Numbered from the stretch's first letter, positions 1 to 4,234 are shown. The stretch: DNA of 4,234 nt from a virus (IMGVR_UViG_3300028965_000035), one strand, 5' to 3'. A program made the numbers and translations. Notes: generated from the letters alone by a model not told the origin.

Positions 1-284
1 TCAGCCGGGGGCAGGCTGCCGGTCACGGCAGCCACCTTTGCGGCCGCGTCGGACGGGGAGACACCAAACACCTTTTCAACCAGTTTCAGGCCGTCACCGG
101 CACCACACTGATTGCAGTACCAGGTGCCGCGCCCCTCCCTGTCATCAAAACGGAAGCGGTCACTCCCGCCACAGACCGGACAGGGCTGATGACGGTTTTT
201 CAGCACCTGAATCCCCAGCGCCGGGAGAATACGCGGCCAGTGGCCGAGCGCATGGCTGACGGTGGCGGTTACGTTCATTTTCAT
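1..284 (-). CDS. alpha: N-terminal ~94 codons of P4-type alpha primase/helicase; gene continues beyond the window start
   Basis: Minus-strand ATG at 284-282, GAAGGAG Shine-Dalgarno (complement of 294-300) about 10 nt upstream. Open frame to the window edge translates MKMNVTATVSHALGHWPRILPALGIQVLKNRHQPCPVCGGSDRFRFDDREGRGTWYCNQCGAGDG..., i.e. a CxxC...CxxC zinc-ribbon typical of primase N-termini. Position downstream of orf106 matches P4 order. Confidence 0.8.
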   Translation of the reverse strand, partial: MKMNVTATVSHALGHWPRILPALGIQVLKNRHQPCPVCGGSDRFRFDDREGRGTWYCNQCGAGDGLKLVEKVFGVSPSDAAAKVAAVTGSLPPA

Positions 285-298
285 GGTGTTGTTCTCCT

Positions 299-619
299 TC
301 AGTGCAGTACCGGCGCTTTTATGTGACGGGCACAGAGTTCATCCATCACAACCAGCCCGAGAAAGGACAGCGACGGCGCGGCCTTCAGGGGGCCGGATTC
401 CATTAAATCTTCCAGCAGGGCACAGGCTATCTGACGCCCTTTTTCCTCACCGTGCTGGCGCAGATAAAAGCCTTCCAGCTCAGCGGCGATGGCCGCTTCC
501 AGTGACTCAAGGGTGAGATGCGGGTAGCGGTGCTGACGTTCGCACACGGTCAGCCAGGCACAGGCGACAGCGCGACGGTAAAGGGCAGCGCGTAAGACGG
601 GCGGTAAGGGTGTTTTCAT
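299..619 (-). CDS. Hypothetical protein, 106 aa (P4 orf106 equivalent), function unknown
   Basis: Complete ORF in the track. ATG at 619-617 preceded by GGGAGG (complement of 627-632) with 7-nt spacer. TGA stop at 301-299 lies inside the alpha Shine-Dalgarno region. Length and position match P4 orf106. Confidence 0.75.
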
Positions 620-700
620 TTGTTTTCCTCCCTGTGACAGATGACTGCATTCCGTGCCGGTTGCATTAACTGATAAGGCATATCTGCGTCTCCTGAAGAC

Positions 701-726
701 GTGCGTATCCCTGCGCGAATACGCAC
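701..726. other. Intergenic stem-loop between orf151 and orf106 (8-bp stem GTGCGTAT/ATACGCAC, 10-nt loop)
   Basis: Perfect inverted repeat 701-708 / 719-726. On the + strand it is followed by T-rich sequence (727-750), so it looks like an intrinsic terminator for antisense transcription. On the - strand it sits 29 nt after the orf151 stop with no U-run. Confidence 0.4.
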
Positions 727-754
727 ATTTAATTTTTCGGGTGTCGTTTTTTAA

Positions 755-1210
755 TTACAGATAATTGCGGTAACTGTTATCCGGGGTGATTTCCGGGTCA
801 GGCTCCGTGCGGGGAATTTCCCGCCATTCCCGCGCCACCGGTGCCGCCCGGCTGGCCGGAACAGTGTCCTGCGGGTAAATATCCAGATATTTCTCCCGCC
901 ATTTCTGTAATTCCGGGTCTCCGGCCATTTCTTTCAGTACCGCATGCCGGTTTACGGGGCTGCGTTTAAACAGGTCAGGACGGTCACAGGTAAATTCCCG
1001 CAGAAAACGCCCCAGCGGGATGTCTGTGGTGCGCCCGTCAGCGAGGATACGCACAAGGATACTGAATTTACGGCGGTACGGGTTCCAGACAATGTCCGGG
1101 CAGCGGTACGGCATTTCCCACGGAATACCGTCTTCCAGAATGCCGACCACGGCCACATCGGGAAAACCGGCAGAACGGTAAATCTCACCGGGCTGGGGAA
1201 AATCAAACAT
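755..1210 (-). CDS. Hypothetical protein, 151 aa (P4 orf151 equivalent), function unknown
   Basis: Complete ORF in the track. ATG at 1210-1208 overlaps the end of the upstream epsilon frame (ATGTTTGA, 8-nt overlap). TAA stop at 757-755. Length and position match P4 orf151. Confidence 0.75.
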   Translation of the reverse strand: MFDFPQPGEIYRSAGFPDVAVVGILEDGIPWEMPYRCPDIVWNPYRRKFSILVRILADGRTTDIPLGRFLREFTCDRPDLFKRSPVNRHAVLKEMAGDPELQKWREKYLDIYPQDTVPASRAAPVAREWREIPRTEPDPEITPDNSYRNYL

Positions 1211-1490
1211 GCGTCCTGTCTCCCCGGTCTTTCTGCTGGGCGAGAAAATCGCGGCACAGGCCTTTGGCTTTCAGCTCATTCAGCACAAAATCAATATCTT
1301 CATTCAGGTAGCTGAAAATATGCGGAATGTAGAGCTGATGCAGGCCGGAGAGTTCACGGTGAATCAAATCACCCCCAACAAACCGGGATACGGCGCTGGC
1401 GCGGTTGAGCTTATGGTAAGCCTCAATGCTGAGGTGTTCACGGGCGTCATGACGCGCTGAGACGGTCTGAGGGGTTTTTTTATTACGCAC
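1203..1490 (-). CDS. epsilon: Epsilon-like helper-prophage derepression protein, 95 aa if started at the GTG
   Basis: The track shows a 175-aa frame (1203-1730) whose upstream part overlaps kil in another frame. The only start with a ribosome-binding site is GTG at 1490-1488, preceded by GGAGGTG (complement of 1495-1501) with a 4-6 nt spacer. It lies 2 nt past the kil TAA stop (1485-1483). Product ends ...DRGDRTHV. Assignment is by position and size; the start codon is inferred. Confidence 0.55.
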
Positions 1491-1680
1491 GGGACACCTC
1501 CACCACCGGCAGACGGGCAGCAAGGGAGAGCACATAGTCACGGACAAGGGAACGGCGGGCACTGCGTTCATCACCGGCGACGGTGCGAAGCATGCAGATA
1601 CGGGGATGACGGTCTGCGCGACGGACAGCCGCAAACACAAAGACAAATTCAGGGTGTGAAGGGGTAAGGGTTGTAGCCAT
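1483..1680 (-). CDS. kil: Kil, 65 aa; an in-frame internal ATG at 1593-1591 would give a nested 36-aa product (eta-like)
   Basis: ATG at 1680-1678 preceded by AAGGAG (complement of 1689-1694) with 8-nt spacer. This is residue 147 of the 211-aa track ORF 1483-2118, whose upstream part covers the CI RNA/seqA leader and is therefore not coding. Product [65 protein letters not shown]. Confidence 0.6.
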
Positions 1681-1686
1681 AAGGCA

Positions 1687-1699
1687 GTCTCCTTCGAGT
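1687..1699 (-). promoter_or_regulatory. seqC-like target of the CI RNA loop, overlapping the kil ribosome-binding site
   Basis: + strand GTCTCCTTCGAGT (1687-1699) matches 12 of 13 positions of GTCGCCTTCGAGT at 1946-1958. Its transcript ACUCGAAGGAGAC is complementary to the loop AUUCUUCGAG in the 1746-1810 RNA (about 9 bp including one G-U). Confidence 0.55.
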
Positions 1700-1745
1700 A
1701 GCAAATAACTGCTATCGCCGGAGTTCTCACGCTCGATGGCGATAG

Positions 1746-1810
1746 CCCAGACGGGGGTGAGAATACCGGCCTCGAAGAATACCGGCCAGCCCGGAGGCTG
1801 CCCCGCCTGA
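1746..1810 (-). ncRNA. cI: CI-type immunity RNA (antisense regulator carrying seqB in a hairpin loop); ends approximate
   Basis: Minus-strand transcript folds into an outer stem (GGCGGGG 1807-1801 with CCCCGUC 1756-1750) enclosing two hairpins: CAGCC-UCCG-GGCUG, and a CCGG/CCGG stem with 10-nt loop AUUCUUCGAG. The complement of that loop, CTCGAAG (1771-1777), occurs only here in the window. Flanked by the direct repeat GAATACCGGCC (1761-1771, 1777-1787). Confidence 0.5.
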
Positions 1811-1919
1811 GCTACCATTGACTCAGTGGCATAACATGCGATTGCGAACAGGATCATACCTGCACGGCAAACCACACGCCACACCATAATCTGGCGCTCT
1901 GTGGCGTTGATTGCGACAC

Positions 1920-1941
1920 AAAAAAAGACGCATGGCGCGTC
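1920..1941 (-). terminator. Terminator-like hairpin plus U7 in the PLE leader, immediately downstream of seqA
   Basis: Minus-strand RNA GACGC-GCCAU-GCGUC (5-bp GC-rich stem, 1941-1927) followed directly by UUUUUUU (1926-1920). The stem is short, so this is more likely a weak or conditional terminator than a constitutive one. Confidence 0.4.
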
Positions 1942-1945
1942 ATAT

Positions 1946-1958
1946 GTCGCCTTCGAGT
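1946..1958 (-). promoter_or_regulatory. seqA-like target of the CI RNA loop in the 5' leader
   Basis: GTCGCCTTCGAGT, direct repeat of the seqC box, about 40-50 nt downstream of the predicted PLE start; complementary to the seqB loop (about 8 bp). Confidence 0.5.
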
Positions 1959-1996
1959 TACACGGGTTCTCACGCCCGGCTGCCGATTTTGCGGCA

Positions 1997-2034
1997 GCGG
2001 AAAAACTATATCCGCAAATGCCGGAAAAAGGCAA
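1997..2034 (-). promoter_or_regulatory. PLE-like constitutive sigma70 promoter of the leftward operon
   Basis: Minus strand -35 TTGCCT (complement of 2029-2034), 18-bp spacer, -10 TATAGT (complement of 2005-2010). Predicted start near 1997, between the vis stop and seqA. Confidence 0.5.
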
Positions 2035-2069
2035 GCCAGAAAAAGGGAGTTTTTGCAGAGCGGGCATCA

Positions 2070-2336
2070 TCATGCGTCGTACCCCCGTTTGCGTCCGGCA
2101 ATGCGCCCGGTCATCCATGCGGTGATTTCAGAGTGCAGCCAGGCCACATTTTTACCGCCAAGACTCACCTGCGGCGGAAATTCCCCCTTACGGATGAGTT
2201 CATAGATGGTCGAGCGTGACAGGCCGCACAGGTGCATCACTTCCGGCAGACGTAAAAAACGCTCCTGCGTGATGTCCGGCAGCGGCATCAGTGGCGTCAC
2301 TGGGGCGGGAGACGGGGAAGAAAAAACAGCTTGCAT
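2070..2336 (-). CDS. vis: Vis, AlpA/excisionase-family helix-turn-helix regulator, 88 aa
   Basis: Complete ORF. ATG at 2336-2334 preceded by GAGGT (complement of 2344-2348) with 7-nt spacer. Product contains [27 protein letters not shown], a typical AlpA/Xis-type HTH. First gene downstream of the PLL-like promoter. Confidence 0.8.
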
Positions 2337-2384
2337 CGGGCTACCTCGTTAATGTCCATACAGCACCGGATAAGTCCGTCCGGC

Positions 2385-2456
2385 TTCGGGTAGCGCTTTA
2401 TTTTGTGAATATTTTCGGCAGACGCAACAGGGGGGATTTGTTCAGGCAGCCTTACA
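2385..2456 (-). promoter_or_regulatory. PLL-like late promoter with Delta/Ogr-type activator dyad TGT-N12-ACA
   Basis: Dyad TGTTCAGGCAGCCTTACA at 2439-2456 (centre 2447.5). Weak AT-rich -10 candidate around 2399-2407 on the minus strand, predicted start near 2390, reading into vis. Confidence 0.5.
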
Positions 2457-2520
2457 ATGGCTGTGTGTTTTTTATCCATCCGGACTGGAAGGGTCTCAAA
2501 GGGTTCTGAAGGACCTGGAA

Positions 2521-2740
2521 TTTTTTATAGTGAAATACAAATTGTTTTTTCTTATTTATTTCAGTGAATTAATAAAAATAAAAAGTAATAAACAGCACAA
2601 AAAGTCCATGAACGGGTGAACAGTGGTGAACAGACGGTGAACAGTCATTACTGCGATTGTTCACCCTTTAACTTACTGTATTACTTATCTTTTTTATTAA
2701 GGTGAACAGAGGTGAACAGTAAAACATAAAAAAAAACAGT
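2521..2740. other. Replication origin region: AT-rich tract with six copies of the octamer TGTTCACC (alpha-binding iteron type)
   Basis: Complement-strand copies GGTGAACA at 2615-2622, 2625-2632, 2636-2643, 2701-2708, 2711-2718 (each as GGTGAACAG); one opposite-orientation copy TGTTCACC at 2658-2665. Flanked by AT-rich DNA (2521-2600, 2666-2700) and an A9 run at 2728-2736. Confidence 0.7.
2615..2719. repeat. Iteron cluster (GGTGAACAG, five direct copies plus one inverted copy)
   Basis: Exact 8-9 bp repeats at about 10-11 bp (one helical turn) spacing in two blocks, separated by an inverted copy. Confidence 0.8.
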
Positions 2741-2795
2741 AAGCAGGTTTTTCCTGCGACCTTTTCCTGGCTTGCCGGTCTGAGGATGAGTCTCC

Positions 2796-2860
2796 TGTGT
2801 CAGGGCTGGCACATCTGCAATGCGTCGTGTTGTTGTCCGGTGTACGTCACAATTTTCTTA
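2796..2860 (+). promoter_or_regulatory. Psid-like late promoter with Delta/Ogr-type activator dyad TGT-N12-ACA
   Basis: Dyad TGTGTCAGGGCTGGCACA at 2796-2813 (centre 2804.5). Weak -10 candidate CACAAT at 2848-2853, predicted start near 2860, leader of about 25 nt to the sid ATG. Confidence 0.5.
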
Positions 2861-2885
2861 ACCTGAAGTGACGAGGAGCCGGAAA

Positions 2886-3620
2886 ATGTCTGACAACACC
2901 ATCCCTGAATATCTGCAACCCGCGCTGGCACAACTGGAAAAGGCCAGAGCCGCCCATCTTGAGAACGCCCGCCTGATGGATGAGACCGTCACGGCCATTG
3001 AACGGGCAGAGCAGGAAAAAAATGCGCTGGCGCAGGCCGACGGAAACGACGCTGACGACTGGCGCACGGCCTTTCGTGCAGCCGGTGGTGTCCTGAGCGA
3101 CGAGCTGAAACAGCGCCACATTGAGCGCGTGGCACGCCGGGAGCTGGTACAGGAATATGACAATCTGGCCGTGGTGCTGAATTTCGAACGTGAACGCCTG
3201 AAAGGGGCGTGTGACAGCACGGCCACCGCCTACCGGAAGGCACATCATCACCTTCTGAGTCTGTATGCAGAGCATGAGCTGGAACACGCCCTGAATGAAA
3301 CCTGTGAGGCGCTTGTCCGGGCAATGCATCTGAGTATCCTGGTACAGGAAAATCCGCTCGCCAACACCACCGGCCATCAGGGCTACGTCGCACCCGATAA
3401 GGCTGTCATGCAGCAGGTGAAATCATCGCTGGAACAGAAAATTAAACAGATGCAAATCAGCCTCACCGGCGAGCCGGTTCTCCGGCTGGCCGGACTGTCA
3501 GCGGCAACACTCCCGCACATGGATTATGAGGTGGCAGGCACACCGGCACAGCGCAAGGTGTGGCAGGACAAAATAGACCAGCAGGGAGCAGAGCTTAAGG
3601 CCAGAGGACTGCTGTCATGA
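2886..3620 (+). CDS. sid: Sid, external scaffold that redirects helper capsid assembly to the small size, 244 aa
   Basis: ATG at 2886 preceded by GAGGAG (2873-2878) with 7-nt spacer. The track's 2868 start is an in-frame GTG without a ribosome-binding site. TGA stop at 3618-3620 overlaps the delta ATG. Assigned by size and position directly before delta. Confidence 0.85.
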   Translation: MSDNTIPEYLQPALAQLEKARAAHLENARLMDETVTAIERAEQEKNALAQADGNDADDWRTAFRAAGGVLSDELKQRHIERVARRELVQEYDNLAVVLNFERERLKGACDSTATAYRKAHHHLLSLYAEHELEHALNETCEALVRAMHLSILVQENPLANTTGHQGYVAPDKAVMQQVKSSLEQKIKQMQISLTGEPVLRLAGLSAATLPHMDYEVAGTPAQRKVWQDKIDQQGAELKARGLLS

Positions 3621-4117
3621 TTTACTGCCCGTCGTGTGGACATGTTGCTCACACCCGTCGCGCACATTTCATGGACGATGGCACCAAGATAATGATTGCA
3701 CAGTGCCGGAATATTTATTGCTCTGCGACATTTGAAGCGAGTGAAAGCTTTTTCTCTGACAGTAAAGATTCAGGAATGGAATACATTTCAGGCAAACAGA
3801 GATACCGCGATTCACTGACGTCGGCCTCCGGCAGTATGAAACGCCCGAAAAGAATGCTTGTTACCGGATATTGTTGTCGGAGATGTAAAGGCCTTGCGCT
3901 GTCAAGAACATCGCGGCGTCTGTCTCAGGAAGTCACCGAGCGTTTTTATGTGTGCACGGATCCGGGCTGTGGTCTGGTGTTTAAAACGCTTCAGACCATC
4001 ACCCGCTTCATTGTCCGCCCGGTCACGCCGGACGAACTGGCAGAACGCCTGCATGAAAAACAGGAACTGCCGCCAGTACGGTTAAAAACACAATCATATT
4101 CGCTGCGTCTGGAATGA
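3617..4117 (+). CDS. delta: Delta, late-gene transcriptional activator made of two Ogr-like zinc-finger modules, 166 aa
   Basis: ATG at 3617 overlaps the sid stop (ATGA); GAGGA at 3604-3608. N-terminal module MIYCPSCGH...CRNIYCSATF and second module CCRRCKG...CTDPGCGLVF each have CxxC...Cx4C spacing like Ogr-family activators. Confidence 0.85.
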   Translation: MIYCPSCGHVAHTRRAHFMDDGTKIMIAQCRNIYCSATFEASESFFSDSKDSGMEYISGKQRYRDSLTSASGSMKRPKRMLVTGYCCRRCKGLALSRTSRRLSQEVTERFYVCTDPGCGLVFKTLQTITRFIVRPVTPDELAERLHEKQELPPVRLKTQSYSLRLE

Positions 4118-4178
4118 GGGCTGCCGGTTAACCCCGGCCGTTGCGTATTACCGTGAAGGAGATCGGTGAGTAACATCG

Positions 4179-4234
4179 ATGGAGATCGGTTCGTGTCACT
4201 TTCACAGAACCGTTTTTAAATTACCTTCACTGAT
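4179..4234 (+). CDS. 5' end of the next late-operon ORF (psu position in P4), truncated by the window end; product not assignable from 18 codons
   Basis: Only frame open to the window end after delta. First ATG at 4179 (MEIGSCHFHRTVFKLPSL...). The nearest strong Shine-Dalgarno, AAGGAGA at 4156-4162, is 16 nt upstream, which is too far for a good site. Identity uncertain. Confidence 0.3.
   Translation, partial: MEIGSCHFHRTVFKLPSL

What the first reader, a model, noticed from the sequence alone, without database searches (positions are those of the whole stretch)
3617..4117. Delta is a covalent tandem of two Ogr-like zinc-finger modules
Both halves of the 166-aa product carry CxxC...Cx4C cysteine spacing (CPSC...CRNIYC and CRRC...CTDPGC). 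The activator is therefore an internally duplicated, built-in dimer. The second module is more diverged, suggesting asymmetric roles for the halves.
Basis: partly seen in the sequence, partly recalled or inferred. Interest (0 to 1): 0.45.

Follow-up and report, generated by a model that had tools for sequence, protein, structure and literature searches.

The report
P4 Delta: two fused Ogr-type fingers
The gene is the well-known late-gene activator Delta of satellite phage P4, which carries two Ogr-type zinc-finger modules as already described in the P4 literature; they look like a fusion of two old, separate neighbouring genes, not a recent internal duplication.

Summary
Window 3617-4117 (+) encodes a 166-aa protein that is 163/166 identical to phage P4 Delta. 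It carries two CX2CX22CX4C motifs (Cys 4/7/30/35 and 87/90/113/118). Each half matches Pfam Ogr_Delta on its own, at 44.3 and 43.9 bits.

- The halves are not detectably similar to each other pairwise (Smith-Waterman z = 0.9; 13% identity). They are linked only through the family (hhalign E = 3e-8).
- The second module is not clearly the more diverged one. It keeps the post-finger RFIVRP motif and the C-terminal tail that the first module lacks.

What I add: other P4-like satellites have, at the same position after sid, two or three separate adjacent Ogr_Delta genes. Their first gene groups with the Delta N module (99.7% bootstrap). In the two-gene arrays the second gene groups with the C module (81%). 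Delta Met74 aligns with the start codon of that second gene. P4 Delta is therefore best read as an in-frame fusion of two long-diverged paralogues, a built-in heterodimer, confined to a young E. coli clade. The fusion origin is an inference.

An IS end lies 24 bp after the stop codon.

The parts
3617..4117 (+). delta CDS (166 aa plus stop). Its ATG overlaps the sid stop (ATGA at 3617-3620).
   Evidence: 98% identical to P4 delta gene product
3617..3835 (+). N module, aa 1-73. Zinc-finger core is aa 4-45 (nt 3626-3751), with ligands C4, C7, C30, C35. Signature H12-x-R14, DDGTK, QCRNxYCSATF. No RFIxxP motif. The tail aa 46-73 is poorly conserved and low-confidence.
   Evidence: Pfam 44.3 bits; groups with the first gene of 2- and 3-gene arrays, bootstrap 99.7%; invariant Cys; pLDDT 87-92 over aa 1-40
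3836..3838 (+). Met74 codon. It aligns with the start codon of the separate second gene in split relatives. No Shine-Dalgarno sequence lies upstream here.
   Evidence: relatives keep GGGAG 6-8 nt upstream and an ATG(G/A)CTAA overlap in 8/8 loci
3836..4114 (+). C module, aa 74-166. Zinc-finger core is aa 87-132 (nt 3875-4012), with ligands C87, C90, C113, C118. RTSR, ERFYVC, FKT and TRFIVRP (to aa 135) motifs. Predicted helix aa 138-149. Conserved C-terminal SYSLRLE (nt 4094-4114).
   Evidence: Pfam 43.9 bits; 46-48% identical to 88-90 aa stand-alone proteins P0032/P0033 over its length; alignment with RLE tails; pLDDT 90-94 over aa 91-130
2796..2813 (.). Distal TGT-N12-ACA dyad upstream of sid. 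Likely the Delta/Ogr binding site of Psid, and conserved in the two-gene relatives.
   Evidence: consensus as quoted in PMC3931495
2834..2851 (.). Proximal TGT-N12-ACA dyad, 38 bp from the distal one. Perfect in P4-type elements only.
2439..2456 (.). TGT-N12-ACA dyad upstream of the leftward alpA/ORF88 gene. Candidate PLL activator site.
   Evidence: position relative to ORF88. Assignment to PLL is from memory of P4 literature.
2886..3620 (+). sid (244 aa from the ATG at 2886), first gene of the sid-delta(-psu) late operon.
4139..4234 (.). End of an insertion sequence, inserted 24 bp after the delta stop in the delta-psu spacer. Similarity to P4 stops at 4141.
   Evidence: 99% identical to a stretch in PhiR12 phages that abuts a gene annotated 'ATP-binding transposition helper protein', next to a transposase gene

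Best explanation
The ORF is delta, the late-gene transcriptional activator of a P4-type satellite prophage. One chain carries two Ogr-family C4 zinc-ribbon-like modules (aa 1-73 and 74-166), joined by a disordered linker. Each module has a complete CX2CX22CX4C zinc site.

Proposed mechanism (established for the family, inferred here): Delta binds the dyad TGT-N12-ACA about 55 bp upstream of P2 late promoters and of P4 Psid/PLL, and recruits RNA polymerase. The two modules would supply the two DNA-binding units that single-module Ogr or B must provide by association.

Origin (new here, inferred): the modules are not a recent internal repeat. They are an in-frame fusion of two adjacent, translationally coupled, long-diverged paralogous genes. 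These genes still exist as separate genes in other P4-like satellites. Delta is therefore a built-in heterodimer.
- The N-type unit is a bare finger.
- The C-type unit keeps the RFIxRP motif, a helix and the SY..RLE tail.

Shown: the two modules, their conservation, the separate-gene arrays and the groupings. Inferred: zinc binding, one module per half-site, heteromer formation in the split relatives, and the direction fusion rather than fission.
For: Identity:
- The window is 97% identical to P4 and Delta is 163/166 identical to P4 delta.

Two modules:
- Pfam gives 2 stretches, and 44.3 and 43.9 bits for the separate halves.
- The spacing is identical in both and the Cys are invariant.
- AlphaFold predicts the same strand topology in both halves, with pLDDT about 87-94 wherever the alignment covers a half. 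The linker (aa 45-76) is below 50.

Old paralogues:
- N vs C is 13% identical, Smith-Waterman z = 0.9, no BLASTP hit.
- Each half vs Ogr or B gives z = 18-22.
- hhalign of the two sub-families gives E = 3.4e-8, in register.

Separate genes elsewhere, directly after sid:
- 81+88 aa (L005), 76+88 aa (L006-L009), 70+88 aa (L012, L013) and 81+88 aa (L014).
- 62+65+84 aa (L015-L017) and 61/62+56/58+84 aa (L018-L020).
- N groups with the first genes at 99.7% bootstrap, and C with the second genes of two-gene arrays at 81%. N and C are sisters in 0/300 replicates.

The junction:
- Met74 aligns with the gene-2 start. 8/8 split loci keep a GGGAG Shine-Dalgarno and an ATG(G/A)CTAA overlap; P4 has none.

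Fused form is narrow and young:
- An exhaustive phmmer search of 1.84 billion representatives found no two-module homologue outside the P4 cluster.
- The fused form is in 925 of 5426 E. coli genomes, all at least 95% identical. The split type is absent from E. coli.

Target sites:
- Dyads are present upstream of sid at 2796-2813 and 2834-2851.
Against: - No experiment here shows zinc binding, DNA binding, or that the split gene products associate.
- The tree rests on about 52 columns and NJ distances. The grouping of C with all last genes, including those of the three-gene arrays, has only 13% bootstrap.
- The direction fusion vs fission rests on outgroup parsimony, the vestigial Met74 without a Shine-Dalgarno, and the low diversity of the fused clade. 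None of these is decisive.
- The inter-module arrangement in the models is not reliable (pTM 0.37-0.61). I could not get coordinates to measure Cys geometry.
- Single-gene delta satellites also exist (L024, L025), so two units are not universally required.
- The sample of split loci is small (about 8 distinct loci, several from metagenomes).
Confidence: 0.85

Rival explanations
1. One reading: Delta arose by tandem duplication inside an ogr-like gene. The second copy then diverged faster, giving a built-in homodimer-like protein.
For: Both halves belong to one family, with identical Cys spacing. The profile-level alignment is in register. Ultimately the two paralogues must trace back to some duplication.
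Against: The halves are 13% identical and never sisters (0/300 bootstraps). Each has closer relatives (43-52% identity) that are stand-alone genes in other satellites. Separate-gene arrays occur in two divergent satellite lineages. The internal Met74 matches a gene start. The second half is not more diverged by Pfam bits or against 186 B.
Confidence: 0.08
2. Fission rather than fusion: the fused two-module gene is ancestral, and the two- and three-gene arrays arose by splitting it through a frameshift plus a new start.
For: A single 1-2 nt indel interconverts the two states. P4-type delta genes are often broken by frameshifts or IS insertions in E. coli (P0022, P0082, P0085, P0080), so splitting events do occur.
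Against: The split state is found in both the sister lineage (two-gene) and the outgroup lineage (three-gene). The latter has true intergenic spacers of 36-38 nt between its first and second genes. Split loci have a conserved Shine-Dalgarno and overlap signals typical of long-standing coupling (8/8). The fused clade is shallow (at least 95% identity), and no diverged fused homologue exists among 1.84 billion representatives.
Confidence: 0.12
3. One module is a degenerate relic, and Delta works through a single functional finger.
For: The N module has lost the RFIxxP motif and tail that are present in Ogr, B and the C module.
Against: Both clusters are complete and invariant, and both score well above the Pfam threshold. 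The N-type gene is retained as an intact, conserved ORF in every two- and three-gene array examined (17 invariant columns in 7 sequences). From memory, not verified here: mutational work by Julien, Lefevre and Calendar (1997) found both domains required.
Confidence: 0.04

Closest known systems
Bacteriophage P4 delta gene product (NP_042043, 166 aa)
   Same: 163/166 residues identical. Same position after sid, in a locus 97% identical to P4, with the same two Cys clusters.
   Different: Three substitutions (C72S, G73S, N129T). Here an IS end follows 24 bp after the stop codon instead of the spacer leading to psu.
P2 Ogr and 186 B (72-aa single-module late activators, Pfam PF04606)
   Same: Same CX2CX22CX4C finger. 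Each Delta half aligns to them with z = 18-22. Same kind of target dyad, TGT-N12-ACA.
   Different: They have one module per chain. Ogr features are split between the Delta halves: N keeps MxxCPxCxHxAHxR...TK...QCxNxxCSATF, and C keeps RTSR...ER...RFIVxP. Delta has its own C-terminal SY..RLE tail instead of the Ogr/B tail.
Separate-gene Ogr_Delta arrays in other P4-like satellites (L005 Buttiauxella noackiae; L006-L009, L012-L014 two genes; L015-L020, including Yersinia ruckeri, three genes)
   Same: Same position directly after the sid-like gene. The first gene is the N-module type. The last gene is the C-module type, with the RLE tail.
   Different: They are separate polypeptides with a coupled or overlapping stop and start. 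The core is 43-52% identical to the Delta modules. No psu follows (defence-type genes instead). Three-gene arrays have an extra middle paralogue. I know of no description of these arrays; the two P4-like survey papers I read treat delta as one component.
Single-gene satellite deltas (phiR73-type; L024 87 aa, L025 81 aa)
   Same: Ogr_Delta gene immediately upstream of psu in P4-like elements; in L024 a 151-aa ORF with no Pfam hit precedes it, and L025 begins at the contig end.
   Different: They have one module and a different tail (KGCYSSPF type). The link to the name phiR73 is from memory.

Membership tests
Ogr/Delta zinc-finger late activators (Pfam PF04606) | Profile match above the curated threshold | tested here: met
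   Whole protein 77.8 bits. N half 44.3 bits and C half 43.9 bits, against a cut-off of 26.3.
Ogr/Delta zinc-finger late activators (Pfam PF04606) | CX2CX22CX4C cysteine motif, conserved in homologues | tested here: met
   Present twice with exact spacing. All 8 Cys are invariant in the alignments.
Ogr/Delta zinc-finger late activators (Pfam PF04606) | One zinc ion bound per C4 module | not testable with these tools
AlphaFold gives the same confident strand topology around both Cys pairs. Needs metal analysis.
Ogr/Delta zinc-finger late activators (Pfam PF04606) | Encoded in a P2-like phage or P4-like satellite, with TGT-N12-ACA sites at late promoters | tested here: met
   P4-type locus. Two dyads upstream of sid and one upstream of alpA; 5 matches in the window against 1.04 expected.
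Ogr/Delta zinc-finger late activators (Pfam PF04606) | Activates late transcription through RNA polymerase alpha subunit contact | not testable with these tools
   Known for Ogr and Delta from genetics (rpoA109), which I recall from memory. Not testable in silico.
P4 Delta proper (fused two-module form) | Both modules in one reading frame, near-identical to P4 delta | tested here: met
   166 aa, 98% identical with no gaps. The same form is in 925 of 5426 E. coli genomes.
   BLASTP gives no hit. Smith-Waterman z = 0.9. 13% identity and 0/300 bootstraps as sisters.
Gene fusion of adjacent paralogues | Each part is orthologous to a separate gene in related genomes, in the same order and position, with a junction matching the stop/start of the split pair | tested here: met
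   arrays; grouping; Met74 and junction. The direction of the event remains inferred.

The most novel reading that the evidence does not exclude
P4-like satellites ancestrally run their late-gene switch with hetero-oligomeric Ogr-family activators encoded by two or three tandem, translationally coupled paralogous genes. P4 Delta would be a recent single-chain fusion of such a pair. If so, the two fingers have long-separated, non-redundant jobs, for example one mainly for half-site binding and the other for binding plus polymerase contact through the RFIxRP motif, helix and RLE tail. The classical 'covalent dimer of Ogr' picture would then be a special case of a wider, undescribed multi-subunit design.
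Probability: 0.5. Interest if true: 0.4.

Novelty: already known. Interest (0 to 1): 0.2.

Why it matters
As stated, the finding re-reads a classic. P4 Delta has been described since 1990 as two Ogr-like zinc-binding domains in one chain, so it changes nothing for a specialist.

The modest added value is evolutionary and practical.
- The halves are ancient paralogues that occur as separate genes in other satellites. This argues for a heteromeric activator.
- It gives a natural split version for testing what each finger does.
- Satellite-detection schemes that count a single 'delta' component may mis-score arrays of two or three Ogr_Delta genes.

Tried and rejected
- Direct self-alignment of the halves gave nothing (BLASTP; Smith-Waterman with 2000 shuffles). 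I rejected 'recent duplication' but kept homology on the basis of Pfam and hhalign.
- Word-indexed protein searches reached only close relatives or a narrow set. The exhaustive representative search was what exposed the single-module relatives of each half.
- The genome-contig scan with a C-module alignment failed once and then returned only 2 loci, so I have no species-wide census of fused vs split forms.
- The split-type DNA has no match in E. coli genomes in near or distant mode.
MAFFT could not place single-module homologues on both halves at once. I therefore ran two models, each informative for one half. The inter-module packing is not trustworthy.
- No solved structure of the family was found by sequence.
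- The primary papers on Delta (Halling 1990; Julien and Calendar 1995; Julien et al. 1997) are not held in the library. The prior-art statement rests on my memory plus reference lists seen.
- I checked whether 81-aa N-only ORFs in E. coli are natural split forms. They are not: they are IS or frameshift disruptions, or a chimera.

Full report
**What is there**

The window is a P4-type satellite prophage segment. Bases 1-4141 are 97% identical to phage P4 6686-10838, covering the end of alpha, ORF106, ORF151, epsilon, cI, ORF88/alpA, ori, sid and delta. The ORF at 3617-4117 (+) encodes 166 aa. Its ATG overlaps the sid stop codon. Its product is 163/166 identical to the P4 delta gene product. The same gene, at 95% identity or more, is present in 925 of 5426 complete E. 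coli genomes.

**Check of the observation**

The cysteines are at 4, 7, 30, 35 and at 86, 87, 90, 113, 118. Both clusters read CX2C-X22-CX4C, which is the spacing quoted for Ogr (PMC3931495). Pfam Ogr_Delta (PF04606) matches twice. Scanned separately, the halves score 44.3 bits (E = 1.7e-11) and 43.9 bits (E = 2.2e-11), against a threshold of 26.3. C4/C7/C30/C35 and C87/C90/C113/C118 are invariant in alignments of 19 and 30 homologues. C86 is not conserved and is not a ligand candidate. The description is correct and not a chance pattern.

**Are the halves a duplication of each other?**

It fails pairwise.
- BLASTP finds no alignment even at E = 100.
- The best Smith-Waterman score is 26. Shuffles give 22.5 ± 4.0, so z = 0.9, and 354 of 2000 shuffles do as well.
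- That optimal path does put all four Cys in register.

Each half, however, aligns strongly with P2 Ogr and 186 B (z = 18-22). A profile-profile comparison of the two sub-families gives 95% probability, E = 3.4e-8, over 48 columns in register at 15% identity. The halves are therefore homologous but very old relatives.

The Ogr features are partitioned between them.
- N keeps MxxCPxCxHxAHxR...TK...QCxNxxCSATF..ES.
- C keeps RTSR...ER...C....C...F.T.....RFIVxP.
- MAFFT even splits Ogr-like proteins: the finger aligns to the N half and the RYIVKP motif plus tail to the C half.

**Is the second module more diverged?**

Not clearly.
- Pfam bits are equal.
- Smith-Waterman scores against 186 B are 114 (N) and 113 (C). 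Against Ogr they are 117 (N) and 97 (C).
- Core identity to Ogr is 40% (N) vs 33% (C), and to B 37% vs 40%.
- tblastn against phage genomes places Ogr and B on residues 63/87-135, which is the C half.

The real asymmetry is qualitative. N is a bare finger with a variable, disordered tail. C has the post-finger RFIVRP motif, a predicted helix (aa 138-149) and a conserved SY..RLE C-terminus.

**Relatives elsewhere**

An exhaustive phmmer search of 1.84 billion cluster representatives found no two-module homologue outside the P4 cluster itself. It found only 56-98 aa single-module proteins matching either residues 1-50 or residues 83-166. Their genomic contexts are informative. In other P4-like satellites, the slot directly after the sid-like gene holds separate, adjacent Ogr_Delta genes.

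| Loci | Gene sizes (aa) | Notes |
|---|---|---|
| L005 | 81 + 88 | Buttiauxella noackiae |
| L006-L009 | 76 + 88 | |
| L012, L013 | 70 + 88 | |
| L014 | 81 + 88 | |
| L015-L017 | 62 + 65 + 84 | |
| L018-L020 | 61/62 + 56/58 + 84 | Includes proteins that sources name as Yersinia ruckeri |

Single-gene versions also exist (L024, L025).

- The first gene of every array has the N-module signature (H-x-R, (E/D)DG(S/T)K, QC.N..CSATF).
- The last gene has the C-module signature and the RLE tail.
- In an NJ analysis of the 52-column core, Delta-N groups with the first genes in 99.7% of 300 bootstraps. Delta-C groups with the second genes of the two-gene arrays in 81%. N and C are never sisters.

**The junction**

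- In all eight two-gene loci, gene 1 ends and gene 2 starts in an 8-nt overlap, ATG(G/A)CTAA. A GGGAG Shine-Dalgarno lies 6-8 nt upstream of that ATG.
- Delta Met74 (MKRPKRMLVTGYCCRRC) aligns with the gene-2 start (MAKVKMGFKCPRC).
- In P4-type DNA this ATG is in frame with the N module and has no Shine-Dalgarno.

Three things favour an in-frame fusion on the P4 branch over repeated fissions:
- the separate state occurs both in the sister (two-gene) lineage and in the more distant (three-gene) lineage;
- the fused clade is shallow;
- diverged fused homologues are absent.

I put fusion at about 0.7 within the overall picture. The tree is short and the sampling is small.

**Structure**

Two AlphaFold runs were needed, because single-module homologues could be aligned to only one half at a time.
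- With N-half coverage: mean pLDDT 74.5, pTM 0.61.
- With C-half coverage: mean pLDDT 68.4, pTM 0.37.

In both runs each module shows the same topology: a short N-terminal strand at the first Cys pair, two long strands, the second Cys pair in the turn, then a third strand. Block means are 87-94 where covered. The linker (aa 45-76) is disordered, and there is a helix at 138-149.

**How it most likely works**

Established for the family (my knowledge of the P2/P4 literature, and partly quoted): Ogr, B and Delta are zinc-binding activators of P2 late promoters and of P4 Psid/PLL. They act at a TGT-N12-ACA dyad centred near -55.

The window has such dyads at 2796-2813 and 2834-2851, 38 bp apart upstream of sid. 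This fits the -55 and about -18 sites I recall for Psid. A further dyad lies at 2439-2456, upstream of the leftward alpA gene. There are 5 matches in the window against 1.04 expected. The distal sid dyad is conserved in the two-gene relatives.

Inference: one Delta chain brings two DNA-binding fingers to the two half-sites. In split relatives, the products of gene 1 and the last gene would do this as a heteromer. The C-type unit, with its extra conserved motifs, is the better candidate for additional contacts such as RNA polymerase.

**Prior knowledge and novelty**

From memory (the papers are not held in the library):
- Halling and co-workers (1990) noted that Delta resembles two Ogr sequences in tandem, each with the Cys motif.
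- Julien and Calendar (1995) purified Delta.
- Julien, Lefevre and Calendar (1997) reported that both Ogr-like domains are required.

The reference lists seen confirm that the 1990 and 1995 papers exist. The finding as stated is therefore already known.

The separate two- and three-gene arrays and the fusion reading are not mentioned in the two P4-like survey papers I read, which treat delta as a single component. I cannot exclude that they are described elsewhere.

**Side observations**

Similarity to P4 ends at 4141. Bases 4139-4234 are 99% identical to a stretch in the PhiR12 phages that abuts an 'ATP-binding transposition helper' gene next to a transposase gene, which looks like an IS21-family end. 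The IS sits 24 bp after the delta stop, in the spacer before psu, so psu is separated from the sid-delta transcript in this element.

The same IS end is joined to delta immediately after codon 73, exactly at the module boundary, in other assemblies (L021, L022; P0080 cluster of 62 sequences).

**Verdict**

The feature itself is already known. The fusion-of-paralogues origin is a modest, testable addition.

Noticed in passing
window 4139-4234: Similarity to P4 stops at 4141. The last ~95 bp are 99% identical to a stretch in the PhiR12 phages that abuts an 'ATP-binding transposition helper' gene next to a transposase gene (IS21-family-like). The IS is inserted 24 bp after the delta stop, in the delta-psu spacer, so psu is cut off from the Psid operon here. 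The window probably ends at an assembly break caused by the IS.
   Followed up: partly
L021 3001-3247 and L022 1422-1668 (P0080): The same IS end (GCGTATTACCGTGAAGGAGATCGGTGAG) is joined to P4-type delta right after codon 73, exactly at the boundary between the two zinc-finger modules. This gives an 81-aa N-only ORF (cluster of 62 sequences). The 93-aa C-only protein P0012, annotated 'transactivation protein' (218 contigs), starts at Met74.
   Followed up: partly
L005, L006-L009, L012-L014 (two genes); L015-L020 (three genes): P4-like satellites with arrays of two or three separate Ogr_Delta genes directly after sid. No psu follows in these loci. The three-gene arrays have a middle paralogue of 56-65 aa that has the RF/LxRVP motif but no RLE tail.
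   Followed up: yes
L006 6549-8048; L007 1888-2805; L012 6435-7676; L018 5680-7125; L005 3597-6188; L014 4029-7496; L025 1047-4256: The slot just downstream of the delta genes carries different defence-type cargo in each relative: reverse transcriptase, TIR or SEFIR-TIR proteins, HD-CE/HATPase, nSTAND plus S8 peptidase, and an OLD-TOPRIM ATPase plus UvrD helicase (Gabija-like). This fits the known P4 defence hotspot.
   Followed up: no
window 2796-2813, 2834-2851 and L006/L012/L014 upstream of sid: Two perfect TGT-N12-ACA dyads, 38 bp apart, precede sid in P4-type DNA. The two-gene relatives keep only the distal one perfectly. At the proximal position they read TGT-N12-ATA.
   Followed up: partly
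L025 11-256 (P0079): A chimeric 81-aa delta. Residues 1-39 are identical to the P4 Delta N module. The rest is of the single-gene satellite type with a KGCYSSPF tail, and psu follows directly. This suggests recombination between delta types inside the finger.
   Followed up: no
window 3830-3835 and 4001-4003: The three differences from P4 Delta are C72S and G73S, in the linker just before Met74, and N129T, in the strand after the second finger.
   Followed up: no
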